A stretch of 64,000 nucleotides of DNA from the human T2T-CHM13v2.0 reference genome, Homo sapiens. This document shows positions 3,001 through 15,000 of the stretch, in pieces (position 1 is the stretch's first letter; every line of letters begins with the position of its first letter). The position numbers were made by a program. The stretch spans positions 30,976,001 to 31,040,000 of the forward strand of contig CP068257.2 in assembly GCA_009914755.4 (NCBI GenBank). Reading direction: 5' to 3'.

Positions 3001-6000
3001 ACTTCTTCGTTCAGGTTGATTTGGATGGCGTTGCTGGGGTAGCTCCAGCGGCCCCTGCCAGAGCGACCCTCCCAGAAATATCCAGCCATCCTCCAGCGGA
3101 CTCTTGCTGAAGGCAGTCGGCGTCAGTCGCTGTTTATTCCGGGCCCCACAGATCCAGAGTCACTGCTCTCATGGAGCTTATATTTTAGTGTGACAAAAAG
3201 AAAACAAAAATAAATGGACAGGCCAGGAGCGGTGGCTCACGCGTGTAATCCCAACACTTAGGGAGGCCGAGGAGGGCGGATCACCTGAGGTCAGGAGTTC
3301 GAAAGCAGCCTGGCCAACATGGTGAAACCCCTTCTCTACTAAAAATACAAAAATTAGCCGAACGTAGTGGCGCGTGCCAGTAATTCCAGCTACTAGGGAG
3401 CCTGAGGTGGGAGAATTGCTTGAACCCGGGAGGCGGAGGTTGCAGTGAGCCTAGATCGCGCCACTACCCTCCAGCCTTGGCGACAGAGTGAGACTGTGTC
3501 TCAAAAATAATAAATAAACAAACGGACAACACAAATTCAAATACAGATCTAAAGAAAACTAAACAGGTTGATGGACTTCTTATGTTTGATGGTCAGGGAA
3601 TGTACACCTTCTGCGATATTGGGAGTAATATTATCGTCTCCCGCCCTGAATATTTAGAAAAATATCACAGTGGGGTGTACACCCCTGCGATATTGAGAGT
3701 AATGTCATCCTCTCCACCCAGGAAATTACTAACAAGGTCACGGGGGGGTGTACTCCCCCTGTGATATTGGGAGTAATGTTTTCCTCCCCAAACCTGGATG
3801 TTAGCAACAAGATAACAGAGGGGGTGTACACACCCTGCGATATTGGAAGTAATATGATCCTCTCCCCCCCGGATACTGGGAAAAATATCACAGCGCGGGT
3901 ATACATTTCCTTCGCTGTTGGGAGTAATATCATTCTTTTCCTCTCTGGATATCAGGAACAATATCACAGGGGTGGTGTACATTTCCTTCGATATGGGGAG
4001 TAATATCATCCTCTCCCCGTTGGGATACTAGGAACAATATCCCAGGGGGGTGTCCACCCTCTGCGATATTGGGAGTAATATCATCCTCTGTTTCCCCGGA
4101 TATTAGACACAATATCACAAAAAAGTGTACACCCCCTGCGATATTGGGAGTAATATCATACTCTCCTTCCCTGGATATTAGAAAACAATATCATCAGGGG
4201 TGAGCACCCCCTGCGATAATGGAAGTAATATTTTCTCTTTTTTTCTTTTCTTTTTTTTTTTTTTTTTTTTTAACAGAGTTTCACTCTTGCTGCCCAGGCT
4301 GGAGTGTAATGGCATGATCTCGGCTCACTGCAGCCTCTGCCTCCCGTATTCAAGCGATTCTCCTGTTTCAGCCTTCCAAGTAGCTGGGATTACAGGCATG
4401 CGCTACCATGCCCGGCAATTTTTTTTTTTTTTTTTTTTTTTTGTATTTTTAGTAGAGACAGTGTTTCTCCATATTGGTCAGGCTGGTCTTGAACTCCCGA
4501 CCTCAGGTGATCCGCCTGATTCAGCCTCGCAAAGTGCTGAGATTACAGGCGTGAGCGATCGCGCCCAGCCACCACTTAGCATTTTCATTTTACATTTGTT
4601 GAAGTTACAGATTTATACACACATTGATTGCTGCTTTATTATACACTTGCATATACATAAAATGGGAAATAGAAAAGAATAAAATGGGCACAATATCCCT
4701 AAAGTTTCACATTCCGAAACATTTTTTAAATATTTGCTTTTTAGAAATTTGTTTCAATTAAGAAACTGCGGTATACACACACAATGAAGTATTATTCAGC
4801 CTAAAAAGGAATAAAATCCTCTCCGCTGCAGAAAAAATGGATGAGATTGCAGGTCTGTATGTTAAGTGAAATAAGCCAGGCACAGAATGACAAATATTAC
4901 ATGTCCTCACTTATACGTAGGAACAAAAAAGAAAATCTTGGCCAGGTGGCTCAGGCCTGTAATCCCAGCACTTTGGGAGGCCGAGTTGCACGGATTACTT
5001 GAGGCCAGGAGTTTGAGAGCTGCCTGGCTAACATGGTGAAACCCCGTCTCTACTAAAAACACAAACAATTAGCCAGGCGTGGTGATGCGTGCCTGTAGTC
5101 TCAGCTACTCGGAAGGCTGAGGCCCAAGAAGCGCTTGAACTCGGGAGGTGGAGGTTGCAGTGAGCCTGGACTGTGCCTGTATGCTCCAATCTGGGCAATG
5201 GAAAGAGACTCCATCACACACCTACAAACAAAAGGAATCTCAGGAAGGTGGAGAGTATAAAGGGGGTTAGCAGACGCTAGGAAGAAAAGGGGTGGATGGG
5301 GAATGAGGAGAAGTGGATAATTGGGTCCCAAAATACAGAAAGATGGAGTAAGTGAGTTCTAGTGTTTGATAGTACAGTATGAAAATTTTAGTTCACAAGA
5401 ATTTCTTGCATATTTCCAGATGCTTTGGTAAGAAGCTTCCTAACTTTCTCATTATGCTGGTTTTTAAGCTCTTGTCTTCTGCTCTTGAAATCATGCTGGT
5501 TTTTTGTTTTTTGTTTTGAGATGGAGTTTTGCTCTTCTTGCCCAGACTGGAGTGTAACAGTGCAATCTTGGCTCACCACAACCTCTGCCTCCTGGGTTCA
5601 AGTGATTCTCCTGCCTCCACCTCCTGAGTAGCTGGGATTACAGGCATGCGCCAGCATGCCCAGCTAATGTTGTATTTTTAGTAGAGACGGGGGTTTCTCC
5701 CTGTCGGTCAGGCTGGTCTTGATCTCCTGACTTCAGGTGATCCGCCCGCCTTGGCCTCCCAAAGTGCTGGGATTACAGGCGTGAGCGACCACGCCCGGCC
5801 CATGCTGTATCCTTATCTGTTGTTTGTTGTGGTTTGTTTGTTTTTGAGCCCAGAAATAACTTCTCACCTATGTGTTCAAATGATTTTTAACATGAGTGCT
5901 AAGAAAGCTCATTGGTGGAAAAGCAGCCTTTTCAAGAAATGGTGTTGGAGAAACTTGATTTCCACATGCAGAAGAATGAAGGTGGACCCTATGTCACACC

Positions 6001-12000: not shown

Positions 12001-15000
12001 CCTGTGGCAGCCGTGCAGCCGCACGGCAGCACAGTCTCATCTCAATATCTTATCTGTTCCATTCCTTTTGCAGGATGGGTTAAAAAAGGCAGCAAGGTCA
12101 AATAAGAATGACATCCCAGGGTGAACACCCACTGTGATATTACGAGTAATACCTCCCTAGGATATAAAAAACACTGTCACAGAGTATACACATGGGGTAC
12201 ACCCACTGTGATATTAGAAGCAATATCTCCCTAAAATATTATGAAAAATATCACAGGGTGTGCAGAGACTGTGTGATATTAGGAGTCATATTTGCCCTGG
12301 TTATTACGACTAATATCAAGGGTGTACACACACGGGGTAAACTTACTGTGATATCAGGAGTTGTATCTCCCTGGGATATTATGAATAATATCACAGGGTA
12401 TACACTATGTGTGTACATCCACTGTGATATTTGAAGTAATATCTCTCTATGAGATTACAAATAATATCAAAGTGTGTACACCCCTGTGACATATTAGGAG
12501 TAACATCCTTCTAGGGTATTACAGATAACGTCACAAGGTGTACACCTTCTGTGACATTTTGTGCACCCTTTGTGACATTAAAAGAAACAACCCCCTAGGA
12601 TATTACGAATAATGACACGGGCGGTTTACACACATGGTGTACACCTCCTGTGCCATCAGGGGTAACATTCCCCTAGGATATTACGAATAATATCACAGCA
12701 GGTGAACACACATGGTGTACACCCCGTGTGACATTAGGAGGAACATGCCCCTAGGGTATTAGGAATAGTATCACAGGCGTTGAATACGCATGATATACAC
12801 CCCCGGTGACATTAAAAGTAACATCCCCCTAGGATATTAACAAGAATATCACAGGGAGTACACCCCATGTGACATTAGGAGTAACATCCCCCGAGGATAT
12901 AACGAATAATATCAGAGGGTGTACACGCATTGTGACATTAGTAGTAACAGCCCGCTATGATATGACGAGTAATATCACAGGGTGTACACCACGTGTCACA
13001 ATTGTAGTAACATTCCCCTAGAATATTACGAATAATATCACAGGAGGTACAGCCCCTGTGATTCACGAGTAACATTTCTATAGAATATTACAAGTCATAT
13101 CACTGTGTGACTCTGTGTACACCCCATGTGACATTGGGAGTAACATCCCACAAAACTATTACAAATAATATCACAGGGTGAACACCCTCTGTGACATGAG
13201 GAATAACGTAGTTTTAGGATATTATGAATGATATGACAAGGTGTACACACCCTGTGATGTTAGAAGCAACATCCGTCTAGGATATTAGGAATAATATCAC
13301 AGGGAACACACCCCCTGTGACATTAGGATATTACAAATAATATCACAAGGTGTACACGCATTGTGACATTAGTAATAATATCCCTCTCATATACTATGAA
13401 TAATATCACAGGGGGTACATCCCTGTGACATTAGGAGTAACATCCCCCTAGAATATGATGAATAATATTGCAGGGGGTACACACCCTGTGACTTCAGGAG
13501 TATCACCGCCCTGGAATATGAGGAATACTGTCCCAGGGTATTAACCCCCTGTGACCTGAGGAGTAACATCCCGCTGGAATATTATGAATAATATCACAGT
13601 GTGTACACCAACTGTGATATTAGGAGTTCTATTTATTTTTAGGATATTAGGGATAATATCACAGCAGATATACACAAATAGTGTGTACACCTACTGTGGT
13701 ATTAAAAGTTATGTCTCCCTAGGGTATTGCGAATAACATCACAGTGGGTGTACACCCACTGTGATATTTGAAGTAATATCTCCCTAAGATATGACAAAAA
13801 ATATCAAAGGGTGGACCCCGTCTGTGACATCAAAAATAACATCTCTTGTGGATATTCCGAATAATATCACTGGGGAGTGTGTATTGGGGAAGGGGGCCTG
13901 TGGGGAGAAAGTGTATGACTGAAGGCCTGGAAATGCCCAAAGCCAATCCCGGCTTCATAGGAAGACTGATAACTGATAGTGGATAGAAGGGGGATGGAGC
14001 CTTAGGGGGAAGATGTGTTATTATTTCTTGTACTGTTGAGACAGGGATCACCCAAACGCTGGAACAGGCAGTACTGGTCTGATTGGCAAATGTCTATCTC
14101 GCCGGAAGGAGAAATGGGCTACTATGTTTTCTTAGCTCCTGACTGCCCGCCATAAGGTCATGCCCTTTCTCTTGAATCCAATTCTGTACCCATCAACTTC
14201 TTAAAATTTTACAGTATAGCCTTCCAGATAGAGAGCTACATGTCCACAAACTTACATATTTTACAGGGTCTCAATATAATTTTTAATAATATTGAGAAAT
14301 GTAGAAAATCGTTGCATAAGAACCCATGTACTGACCATCCAGTTTTGTTTAAATATGTAGGTTAGTAATCATCTAGTGATTATTAAAATCACCACAGATC
14401 AAGCCTGTGCAGTATCTTTAAATTTGTCAGCCCTGGTATTCGTTGTCCTCATGACTTTATTATAACTGCATTCTGTTCAGCATTTTCTTTTTTTTCTTTT
14501 TTCTCTTTTTTTGAGACAGAGTCTCACTCTTGTCGCCCAGGCTGGAATGCAGTGGCTCATTGCAACTGCTGCCTCCTGGGTTCAAGCAATTCTCCTGCCT
14601 CAGCTTCCTGAGTAGCTGGGATTACAGGCGCCTGCCACCACGCCCAGCTAATTTTTGTATTTTTAGTAGAGACGGGGTTTTGCCATGTTGGCCAGGCTGG
14701 TCTCGTGACCTCAGGTGATCCGCCCGCTTCAGCCTCCCAAAGTGCTGGAATTATAGGCGTGAGCCACCACCTGGCCCTGTTCAGCATTTTCTTAAGGTCC
14801 TTTTCTTCTCATACAGGTCTTGTCTTAAATATCTGTGGTTAGCTCTTTCTTGGTGTGGTTTCAGCAATCATAAATCATGCAAAGCCTGTTGTCTTGCCCT
14901 CAGGCACCCAAGTGACTTCTGAATCTGAAGACCAAGATGACACCTGGTGTGTGGTCTTGTGAGTTTTGGCTGGTTTTCTCTTAGTGTTTTAGGTGCTGTT

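What the first reader, a model, noticed from the sequence alone, without database searches (positions are those of the whole stretch)
3577..13870. OR7E-like olfactory-receptor pseudogene embedded between two same-orientation blocks of one ~60-bp satellite, next to a housekeeping-type CpG promoter
Block A (3577-4215, ~10 units) and block B (12120-13870, ~28 units) share the unit ...GTGTACACCCC(T)GYGAYATTRGGAGTAAYATC..CC..GGATATTASGAAYAATATCACAGGG. They are separated by ~7.9 kb of Alu-rich DNA that contains the OR pseudogene (11030-12010). Block B begins 110 bp after the pseudogene. OR7E pseudogenes are a dispersed family known to travel inside duplicated segments. Here the unit of movement appears to have included this satellite on both sides. 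That could mean the satellite array existed first and the OR segment inserted into it, or that array and pseudogene co-dispersed as a segmental duplication.
Basis: partly seen in the sequence, partly recalled or inferred. Interest (0 to 1): 0.55.

Follow-up and report, generated by a model that had tools for sequence, protein, structure and literature searches.

The report
Published OR7E "Xiao" duplicon, chromosome 21

Summary
Block A (3604-4232) has 8.4 units of 75-76 bp. Block B (12100-13885) has 26 units with a 63-bp core. Both lie on the + strand and occur nowhere else in the 64 kb. Their consensus units are 85% identical, so they are two subfamilies of one satellite. Between them lie seven Alus and a frameshifted OR7E pseudogene (11020-12035).

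The window is the CFAP298/C21orf59 to SYNJ1 interval. All four junction primers published for the human "21q-32 Mb Xiao" (Li et al. 2009) match it exactly and bracket the ends of blocks A and B. The interior (4571-12104) is colinear with a macaque chr19 OR7E tandem unit that carries no satellite.

The OR-to-satellite junction is base-for-base the same in 29 other human OR7E contigs (24 distinct sequences). The DNA beyond the satellite differs between copies. A distant mammal has an empty site lacking the whole 3604-13885 segment.

So satellite and pseudogene moved together as one duplicon. The alternative, that the OR inserted into an array already at this site, is rejected for this locus. This copy lacks the HERV-E found in canonical Xiao flanks. 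Verdict: already known, low interest.

The parts
1500..3250 (-). CpG-island promoter and first exon of CFAP298/C21orf59. The coding part of exon 1 is 2107-2244 on the minus strand (MVLLHVKRGDESQF...). This is host DNA to the left of the duplicon.
   Evidence: GC 0.58-0.66 and CpG observed/expected 0.64-0.86. ORF translation. PDB hit 9k9m_A 'Flagellar associated protein', E = 1.3e-4. The gene name comes from memory plus PMC2674219, which places C21orf59 and OR7E23P beside SYNJ1.
3221..3525 (+). Alu with its A-rich tail, in host DNA just left of the duplicon. It is a separate insertion.
   Evidence: Alu blast. It is shared with primate contigs L016-L020 of about 90% identity, which break inside it. 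It is absent from the distant outgroup.
3604..4232 (+). Satellite block A: 8 full units plus 1 partial unit of 75-76 bp (A-type). This is the left end of the duplicon. The left insertion junction is at 3603/3604 (host ...GGTCAGGGAATGT | ACACC...).
   Evidence: The outgroup alignment ends at 3603. Published primer H21-32L_R lies at 3890-3909 and its partner at 3119-3138.
4233..4570 (-). Poly-T run plus Alu at the boundary between block A and the core. It is part of the duplicon.
   Evidence: Alu blast. Published primer H2-71R_F of another Xiao locus matches exactly across the Alu/core boundary at 4565-4584.
4571..12099 (+). Xiao core: one unit of the chr19p OR7E tandem array, with Alus at 4945-5215, 5518-5800, 6838-7109, 7260-7538, 9251-9531 and 10126-10407.
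   Evidence: Colinear at 84-88% identity with macaque chr19 loci L002-L004 from 4571 to 12104. Internal primers of other Xiao/DA loci map here.
11020..12035 (+). OR7E pseudogene (OR7E23P by location), with three frameshifts (near 11195, 11435 and 11545) and an in-frame TGA at 11849-11851.
   Evidence: OR7E23P is placed at 21q22.11 next to SYNJ1 and C21orf59 by PMC2674219 and PMC12779367.
12100..13885 (+). Satellite block B: 26 units with a 63-bp core (B-type). This is the right end of the duplicon. The founder junction is ...GGTCAAATA | AGAATGA(C/T)ATC... at 12104/12105. The right insertion junction falls in 13886-13902.
   Evidence: The junction is identical in 29 paralog contigs. Macaque and orangutan chr19 diverge exactly there. 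Published primers H21-32R lie at 13499-13518 and 14088-14107. Outgroup homology resumes at 13876-13903.
20996..21814 (-). Last coding exon of SYNJ1 (C-terminal tail with NPF motifs). This is the host gene to the right of the duplicon.
   Evidence: ORF. Homologues are named synaptojanin-1-like or phosphatidylinositol-bisphosphatase.

Best explanation
Window 3604-13885 is the human chromosome 21q22.11 copy of the 'Xiao' / OR7E core duplicon, listed as '21q-32 Mb Xiao' by Li et al. 2009. It is an ape-specific, roughly 10.3-kb duplicative insertion.

Its core (4571-12099) is one unit of the chr19p13 OR7E tandem gene array. In a single founder event that unit became bracketed by two related satellite arrays in the same orientation: A-type units of 75 bp on the left and B-type units of 63 bp on the right. 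These are presumably the SATR2 and SATR1 of RepeatMasker.

The whole composite (satellite, core with OR, satellite) was then copied to dozens of loci, including the gap between the CFAP298 promoter and the 3' end of SYNJ1.

The OR is a dead pseudogene, and the element has no evident function here. Its known significance is as a substrate or breakpoint for further rearrangement.

What is shown: the identity of the locus, the chr19 origin of the core, the shared OR-to-satellite junction in paralogs, the satellite forming the outer edge, the empty site in an outgroup, and the absence of HERV-E in this copy.

What is inferred: the copying was DNA-level duplicative transposition (break repair or template switching at the satellite) rather than retrotransposition.
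For: 1. Locus identity. All four locus-specific junction primers for H21-32L and H21-32R (PMC2700803, Additional file 1) match the window with 0 mismatches and in the correct orientation: 3119-3138, 3890-3909, 13499-13518 and 14088-14107. They bracket the outer ends of blocks A and B.

2. Flanking genes. These are the SYNJ1 last exon and CFAP298 exon 1. OR7E23P is reported beside SYNJ1 and C21orf59.

3. Origin of the core. Positions 4571-12104 are colinear at 84-88% identity with macaque chr19 OR7E tandem units that contain no satellite. The homology stops exactly where block B starts.

4. Shared junction. The core-to-satellite junction is identical in 29 human OR7E contigs, which form 24 clusters at 99.3% identity, and a bonobo paralog carries a 5.4-kb B-type array at the same place, its junction interrupted by an Alu insertion. 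The sequence beyond the satellite is unrelated in four paralogs (three human contigs and the bonobo copy) and in the window.

5. Empty site. Outgroup contigs L005-L008 join window 3603 almost directly to about 13876-13903.

6. Sharing with other copies. Internal primers of other Xiao/DA loci map within the core and block B. The Xiao-internal amplicon is 493 bp here against 498 bp published, so there is no LTR5B insertion.

7. Literature. Xiao is described as a 10-kb chr19p OR7E core with SATR-containing flanks, present at 21q-32 in all apes and absent from Old World monkeys. OR7E is described as flanked by SATR2, SATR1 and ERV1.
Against: The canonical Xiao is about 30 kb, with flanks of the form SATR, HERV-E, SATR. 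This copy is 10.3 kb and contains no HERV-E, because every base of 3604-13885 is accounted for as satellite, Alu or chr19-homologous core.

The satellite names SATR1 and SATR2 could not be checked against Repbase or Dfam.

Co-movement of block A with the core rests on the outgroup empty site, on Li et al.'s junction placement and on one cross-locus primer. I obtained no paralog sequences spanning that side.

The outgroup is distant (about 75% identity in non-coding DNA) and has about 175 bp at the site that is not in the window. No significant target-site duplication was found.

The primary description (Ji & Zhao 2008) and Newman & Trask 2003 could not be read.
Confidence: 0.93

Rival explanations
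1. A satellite array already lay between CFAP298 and SYNJ1, and the OR7E-bearing segment later inserted into it, splitting it into blocks A and B.
For: Blocks A and B have the same orientation and belong to one family. Block A ends at about unit position 31 and block B resumes at about position 47, which is roughly compatible with one unit having been split. With a 63-75 bp period this is close to chance, and it is my inference.
Against: The outgroup empty site has no satellite. Li et al. report that both junction PCRs, whose inner primers sit in blocks A and B, are negative in Old World monkeys. Blocks A and B are distinct subfamilies with 75-bp and 63-bp units. The OR-to-block-B junction is identical at at least 24 other sequences, so it was not created at 21q unless 21q was the founder copy.
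Confidence: 0.03
2. The 21q copy is the founder or an early 'proto-Xiao'. The chr19 unit first became joined to satellite here or in a form like this one (satellite, core, satellite, without HERV-E). The larger HERV-E-containing Xiao and DA copies derive from such a form.
For: The locus is among the oldest, being present in gibbon and siamang. It lacks HERV-E and LTR5B. Four paralogs also end in satellite followed directly by unique DNA, with no HERV-E immediately after.
Against: The OR region is only 92-95% identical to the other copies, with no sign of being basal. Loss of HERV-E by deletion or recombination between flanking satellite arrays, or partial copying, explains the short form equally well. 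No phylogeny was made.
Confidence: 0.1
3. The element moved as a composite LTR-retrotransposon that depends on HERV-E machinery (the Ji & Zhao / Li et al. hypothesis), rather than by DNA-level segmental duplication.
For: Li et al. report target-site duplications of 4-9 bp at most Xiao loci and activity that coincided with HERV-E. A HERV-E-like provirus lies 35 kb away in the same window.
Against: This copy has no HERV-E or LTR at either end. Only a non-significant 5-bp match (GGGAA) flanks it. The outgroup suggests that about 175 bp of target was lost or changed. The left junction shows microhomology between the host sequence CAGGGAATGT and the unit end CAGGGGGTGT. The authors themselves call the idea unproven.
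Confidence: 0.07

Closest known systems
Xiao element / OR7E interchromosomal core duplicon (Ji & Zhao 2008; Li et al. 2009, PMC2700803; Mohajeri et al. 2016, PMC5088589)
   Same: It is the same locus, because the published 21q-32 junction primers match exactly. It has a chr19p-derived OR7E core, satellite at both ends in direct orientation, is an ape-specific insertion, and has no LTR5B (the 'standalone' type).
   Different: It is only 10.3 kb against about 30 kb. The flanks are satellite only, without the HERV-E of the canonical SATR-HERV-E-SATR ('SES') flank.
DA element (about 300 kb; derived from Xiao by insertion of 16p/21q sequence)
   Same: It shares the Xiao core and the satellite edge. 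DA junction primers map at 7250-7269 and 8529-8548 in the core.
   Different: There is no 16p/21q/8p insert, no LTR5B and no HERV-H/HERV-E block here.
7E olfactory-receptor segmental duplications (Newman & Trask 2003; cited but not readable here)
   Same: An OR7E pseudogene dispersed as part of a larger duplicated block.
   Different: Nothing known differs. This locus is one of those copies.
SATR1/SATR2 satellites (Repbase/RepeatMasker classes)
   Same: The literature names SATR1 and SATR2 as the satellites that flank OR7E in Xiao. Blocks A and B occupy those positions.
   Different: I could not align the blocks to the SATR consensus sequences, so which block is SATR1 and which is SATR2 is not established.
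Bacterial composite transposons (Tn9-like; the analogy used by Ji & Zhao)
   Same: A passenger segment bracketed by two direct repeats.
   Different: The brackets here are non-coding satellite arrays of different subfamilies. No transposase or integrase is involved in this copy.

Membership tests
Xiao duplicon | Locus identity: the published junction-spanning primers for the 21q-32 Mb Xiao are present, exact and correctly oriented | tested here: met
   Four of four primers match with 0 mismatches. The amplicons are 3119-3909 and 13499-14107.
Xiao duplicon | Core of about 10 kb derived from the chr19p OR7E region | tested here: met
   Positions 4571-12104 are colinear with macaque chr19 OR7E tandem units at 84-88% identity.
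Xiao duplicon | Satellite (SATR) arrays flanking the core as direct repeats | tested here: met
   Blocks A and B are both on the + strand, with 85% consensus identity. The SATR1/SATR2 names themselves are not testable here because no Repbase or Dfam library is available.
Xiao duplicon | HERV-E inside each flanking element (SES = SATR, HERV-E, SATR) | tested here: not met
   All of 3604-13885 is satellite, Alu or chr19-homologous core. Host DNA starts at about 13886. This is a short, HERV-E-less copy, yet Li et al. still list it as a Xiao.
Xiao duplicon | Insertion relative to non-ape species (empty orthologous site) | tested here: met
   Contigs L005-L008 from an unidentified distant mammal join 3603 to about 13876-13903. 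Absence from Old World monkeys is taken from Li et al. Table 1 and was not tested here.
Xiao duplicon | Target-site duplication of 4-9 bp | tested here: inconclusive
   Only GGGAA is shared (3596 and 13887), which is a chance-level match. The outgroup has about 175 bp of extra sequence at the site.
Xiao duplicon (standalone type) | No LTR5B at the internal junction | tested here: met
   The Xiao-internal primers lie at 8052 and 8544, giving 493 bp against the published 498 bp.
OR7E olfactory-receptor subfamily | Closest relatives are 7E receptors, with the 7tm_4 fold | tested here: met
   7tm_4 at 4e-36. The top hits are 'olfactory receptor 7E24-like' at 81-89% identity.
Functional olfactory-receptor gene | Uninterrupted reading frame of about 310-330 codons | tested here: not met
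   Three frameshifts and a TGA at 11849-11851.

The most novel reading that the evidence does not exclude
This copy has no HERV-E and ends in satellite, and at least four other copies also end in satellite followed directly by unique DNA. The satellite monomers are imperfect palindromes of about 50 bp. Together these points suggest that the satellite, not the HERV-E, is the minimal terminal module of the Xiao duplicon. They also suggest that the element spread by DNA breakage or template switching at hairpin-prone satellite, using microhomology and causing small target deletions, rather than by HERV-E-dependent retrotransposition.
Probability: 0.3. Interest if true: 0.3.

Novelty: already known. 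Interest (0 to 1): 0.1.

Why it matters
It matters little as a discovery. The element, its satellite flanks, its chr19 origin, its age and this very locus are already published. Xiao/DA duplicons do matter in general, because they sit at the breakpoints of the 8p23.1 inversions and of other ape-lineage rearrangements (PMC5088589). First, a base-level founder junction is shared by at least 24 paralog sequences. Second, the exact chr19 breakpoint is defined. Third, the 21q copy lacks HERV-E. Fourth, the satellite monomers are palindromic. These bear modestly on the unresolved question of how such duplicons move.

Tried and rejected
- Papers not held: Ji & Zhao 2008 (PMC3092482) and Newman & Trask 2003 (PMC430936).
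- SATR consensus: I tried to obtain a SATR1/SATR2 consensus or primers from papers and found nothing usable. The gibbon paper has no held supplement. A full-text search for satellite k-mers gave 0 papers. Other SATR papers give no sequence.
- Homology search with the 46-residue CFAP298 exon returned only unnamed short ORFs, with no full-length named protein. The SYNJ1 exon search likewise gave no full-length primate gene model. I therefore could not fetch the macaque orthologous interval. The about-90%-identity primate contigs L016-L020 end inside the Alu at 3259, before the junction.
- Genome-contig scans: the A-type tandem pattern gave 0 hits. The core primer gave 5 bacterial MAG contigs with no homology to the window, so these are chance 20-mer matches.
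- Target-site duplication search: only a chance-level 5-mer was found.
- I considered that the ERV at 49-55 kb could be the HERV-E part of a Xiao flank and rejected it. It lies 35 kb away inside a SYNJ1 intron, with no satellite around it.
- I considered that the window could be the chr19 donor locus and rejected it, on the flanking genes and the primer matches.
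Full report
**Observation**

Tandem Repeats Finder reports an array at 3601-4242 (period 75, 8.4 copies) and a set of overlapping arrays at 12125-13627 (periods 63-78). BLAST with either consensus unit hits both blocks and nothing else in the 64 kb; apart from a few short minus-strand hits inside the blocks that reflect the unit's internal symmetry, the hits are on the + strand. 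nhmmer gives the same picture.

Block A consists of 8 full units and 1 partial unit of 75-76 bp (3601-4232). Block B consists of 26 units with a 63-bp core and 0-18 bp spacers (12123-13874). In the alignment of all 34 units, the two block consensuses are 85% identical over 61 shared columns. The A units carry an extra 9-nt pyrimidine stretch. Mean pairwise identity is 75% within A, 73% within B and 67% between blocks.

The OR pseudogene is real. Stitching four reading-frame pieces gives a 326-residue sequence that hits Pfam 7tm_4 at 4e-36. Its best relatives are 'olfactory receptor 7E24-like' proteins of Old World monkeys and apes at 81-89% identity, against 73% for true OR7E24. It has three frameshifts and an in-frame TGA at 11849. 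Seven Alus make up 25% of the DNA between the blocks, and 1500-3250 is a CpG island.

**Where the window comes from**

The minus-strand ORF at the CpG island ends in MVLLHVKRGDESQF.... I recognise this from memory as the N-terminus of CFAP298/C21orf59. It matches a PDB 'flagellar associated protein' at E = 1.3e-4. The minus-strand ORF at 20996-21814 is the NPF-motif tail of synaptojanin-1, and its homologues are named accordingly. OR7E23P is a 21q22.11 pseudogene reported next to SYNJ1 and C21orf59.

The decisive evidence comes from Li et al. 2009 (PMC2700803, Additional file 1), who list junction primers for a human '21q-32 Mb Xiao'. All four occur in the window with no mismatch and in the right orientation: 3119-3138 and 3890-3909 span the outer end of block A, and 13499-13518 and 14088-14107 span the outer end of block B. 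The finding is therefore a published element at its published locus.

**What Xiao is, according to the literature**

Xiao is a core of about 10 kb derived from the chr19p OR7E region. It is flanked by two direct-repeat elements of the form SATR, HERV-E, SATR, where SATR means the satellites SATR1 and SATR2. There are 45 Xiao and 20 derived DA copies at 30 human loci. The element arose 25-18 million years ago. The 21q-32 copy is present in all apes including gibbons and absent from Old World monkeys. Mohajeri et al. 2016 describe the same core duplicon as OR7E flanked by SATR2, SATR1 and ERV1, and place evolutionary breakpoints of 8p23.1 within these satellites.

**Independent tests made here**

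1. *Origin of the core.* Macaque chr19 loci encoding 7E24-like receptors (L002-L004) are colinear with window 4571-12104 at 84-88% identity. They show a tandem period of about 11.4 kb and contain no satellite. In macaque and orangutan chr19 the sequence reads ...GGTCAAATA|TCYAGACCTGCAAAG. In the window it reads ...GGTCAAATA|AGAATGACATCCCAGGG, which is the start of block B.

2. *Other copies.* A bonobo paralog (L001) has the OR at 92% identity, followed by 5.4 kb (79 units) of B-type satellite. A scan of metagenome assemblies for the OR returned 61 host-contaminant contigs. Every one of the 29 contigs whose homology reaches window position 12104 continues into satellite, and the junction sequence is the same in all of them. 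They form 24 clusters at 99.3% identity. The DNA after the satellite differs between L040, L059, L036, L001 and the window, so the satellite is the outer edge of the duplicated unit.

3. *Published primers of other loci.* Inner primers designed for other Xiao/DA loci fall in block B and in the core. One of them spans the boundary between the Alu at 4273-4570 and the core, so that Alu belongs to the duplicon. The Xiao-internal amplicon is 493 bp against 498 bp published, so there is no LTR5B.

4. *Empty site.* Short contigs from an unidentified distant mammal that carry CFAP298 exon 1 (L005-L008) align to window 3107-3226 and 3516-3603, and then to 13876/13903-14042. The whole 3604-13885 segment is missing there. 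The left junction is host ...GGTCAGGGAATGT followed by satellite ACACC....

**Which scenario holds**

Satellite and pseudogene arrived together as one duplicon. A single founder event joined the chr19 unit to the satellite, and the composite then spread. The idea that the OR inserted into an array already present at 21q is contradicted by three results: the empty site, the different subfamilies on the two sides, and the shared junction.

**How this copy differs from the canonical element**

Every base of 3604-13885 is satellite, Alu or chr19-homologous core. There is therefore no HERV-E, and the copy is 10.3 kb rather than about 30 kb.

I found no convincing target-site duplication; only GGGAA is shared. 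The outgroup has about 175 bp at the site that is absent from the window. The host sequence at the left junction (CAGGGAATGT) resembles the end of a satellite unit (CAGGGGGTGT).

The consensus monomers fold as strong DNA hairpins, with z = -4.1 for the B-type and -3.0 for the A-type. Individual decayed units vary.

These points lean towards DNA-level duplicative transposition rather than the HERV-E-dependent retrotransposition that Li et al. raise as a hypothesis. With only a distant outgroup, this remains inference.

**Limits**

I could not read Ji & Zhao 2008 or Newman & Trask 2003. I could not compare the blocks with the SATR1/SATR2 consensus sequences. I could not fetch the macaque orthologous interval, and I obtained no paralog sequence across the left (block A to core) junction. 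The species is taken to be human because primers designed on hg18 match exactly; a very close ape is not strictly excluded.

**Verdict**

The feature is already known and of low interest.

Noticed in passing
window 49375-54773 (+): A truncated class I provirus lies inside a SYNJ1 intron. Its 467-bp LTRs are 89% identical (49375-49835 and 54311-54773), and it has RNase H, integrase and env-TM ORFs. The primer-binding site TGGTTCCCCGACCGGGAA at 49839-49856 is one mismatch from the complement of the tRNA-Glu 3' end, which makes it HERV-E-like (tRNA sequence from memory). No satellite surrounds it, and it is 35 kb from the Xiao copy.
   Followed up: partly
window 3604-4232 and 12100-13885: Each satellite monomer is an imperfect palindrome of about 50 bp (CTGTGATATT...AATATC / GATATT...AATATCACAG). 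The consensus units fold as DNA hairpins with z = -4.1 (B-type) and -3.0 (A-type). Some decayed units have lost this property.
   Followed up: partly
window 12123-13874: Block B has a nested substructure. Units B1-B5 and B23-B25 are of the GATATT/AATATC type, often with an ACACATGG-type spacer that gives a 74-78 bp period. Units B6-B22 are of the GACATT/AACATC type with a 63-bp period.
   Followed up: no
L027 214-517, L052 400-703, L015 9798-10219: A second arrangement exists in other 7E copies. Satellite directly abuts a 7E OR that is truncated at window-equivalent positions ~11113-11162; it is clearly A-type in L027 and L052, while the short array in the orangutan chr19 locus L015 matches both consensus units only weakly. 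In L027 the 3' flank is of the chr19 type and has no B-type satellite. This suggests that the satellite-7E association also occurs inside or near the chr19 cluster.
   Followed up: partly
L005 (reverse complement) 1608-1780; window 3603 / 13886: The distant-mammal empty site carries about 175 bp between the two flanks that has no counterpart anywhere in the window. This is either target DNA lost on insertion or a gain specific to the outgroup lineage.
   Followed up: partly
window 22398-23044 and 28109-28720: Two copies of an element of about 600 bp match each other at 74% identity in both orientations, so the element is internally palindromic. Part of the match may simply be Alu-derived sequence (an Alu-like ORF lies at 22501-22788 and other Alus hit 28416-28717). 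They lie downstream of the last coding exon of SYNJ1 and were not identified.
   Followed up: no
window 1320-1427: An (AT)n / AT-rich microsatellite of about 54 dinucleotide copies at 70% purity lies within CFAP298 intron 1, next to an Alu.
   Followed up: no
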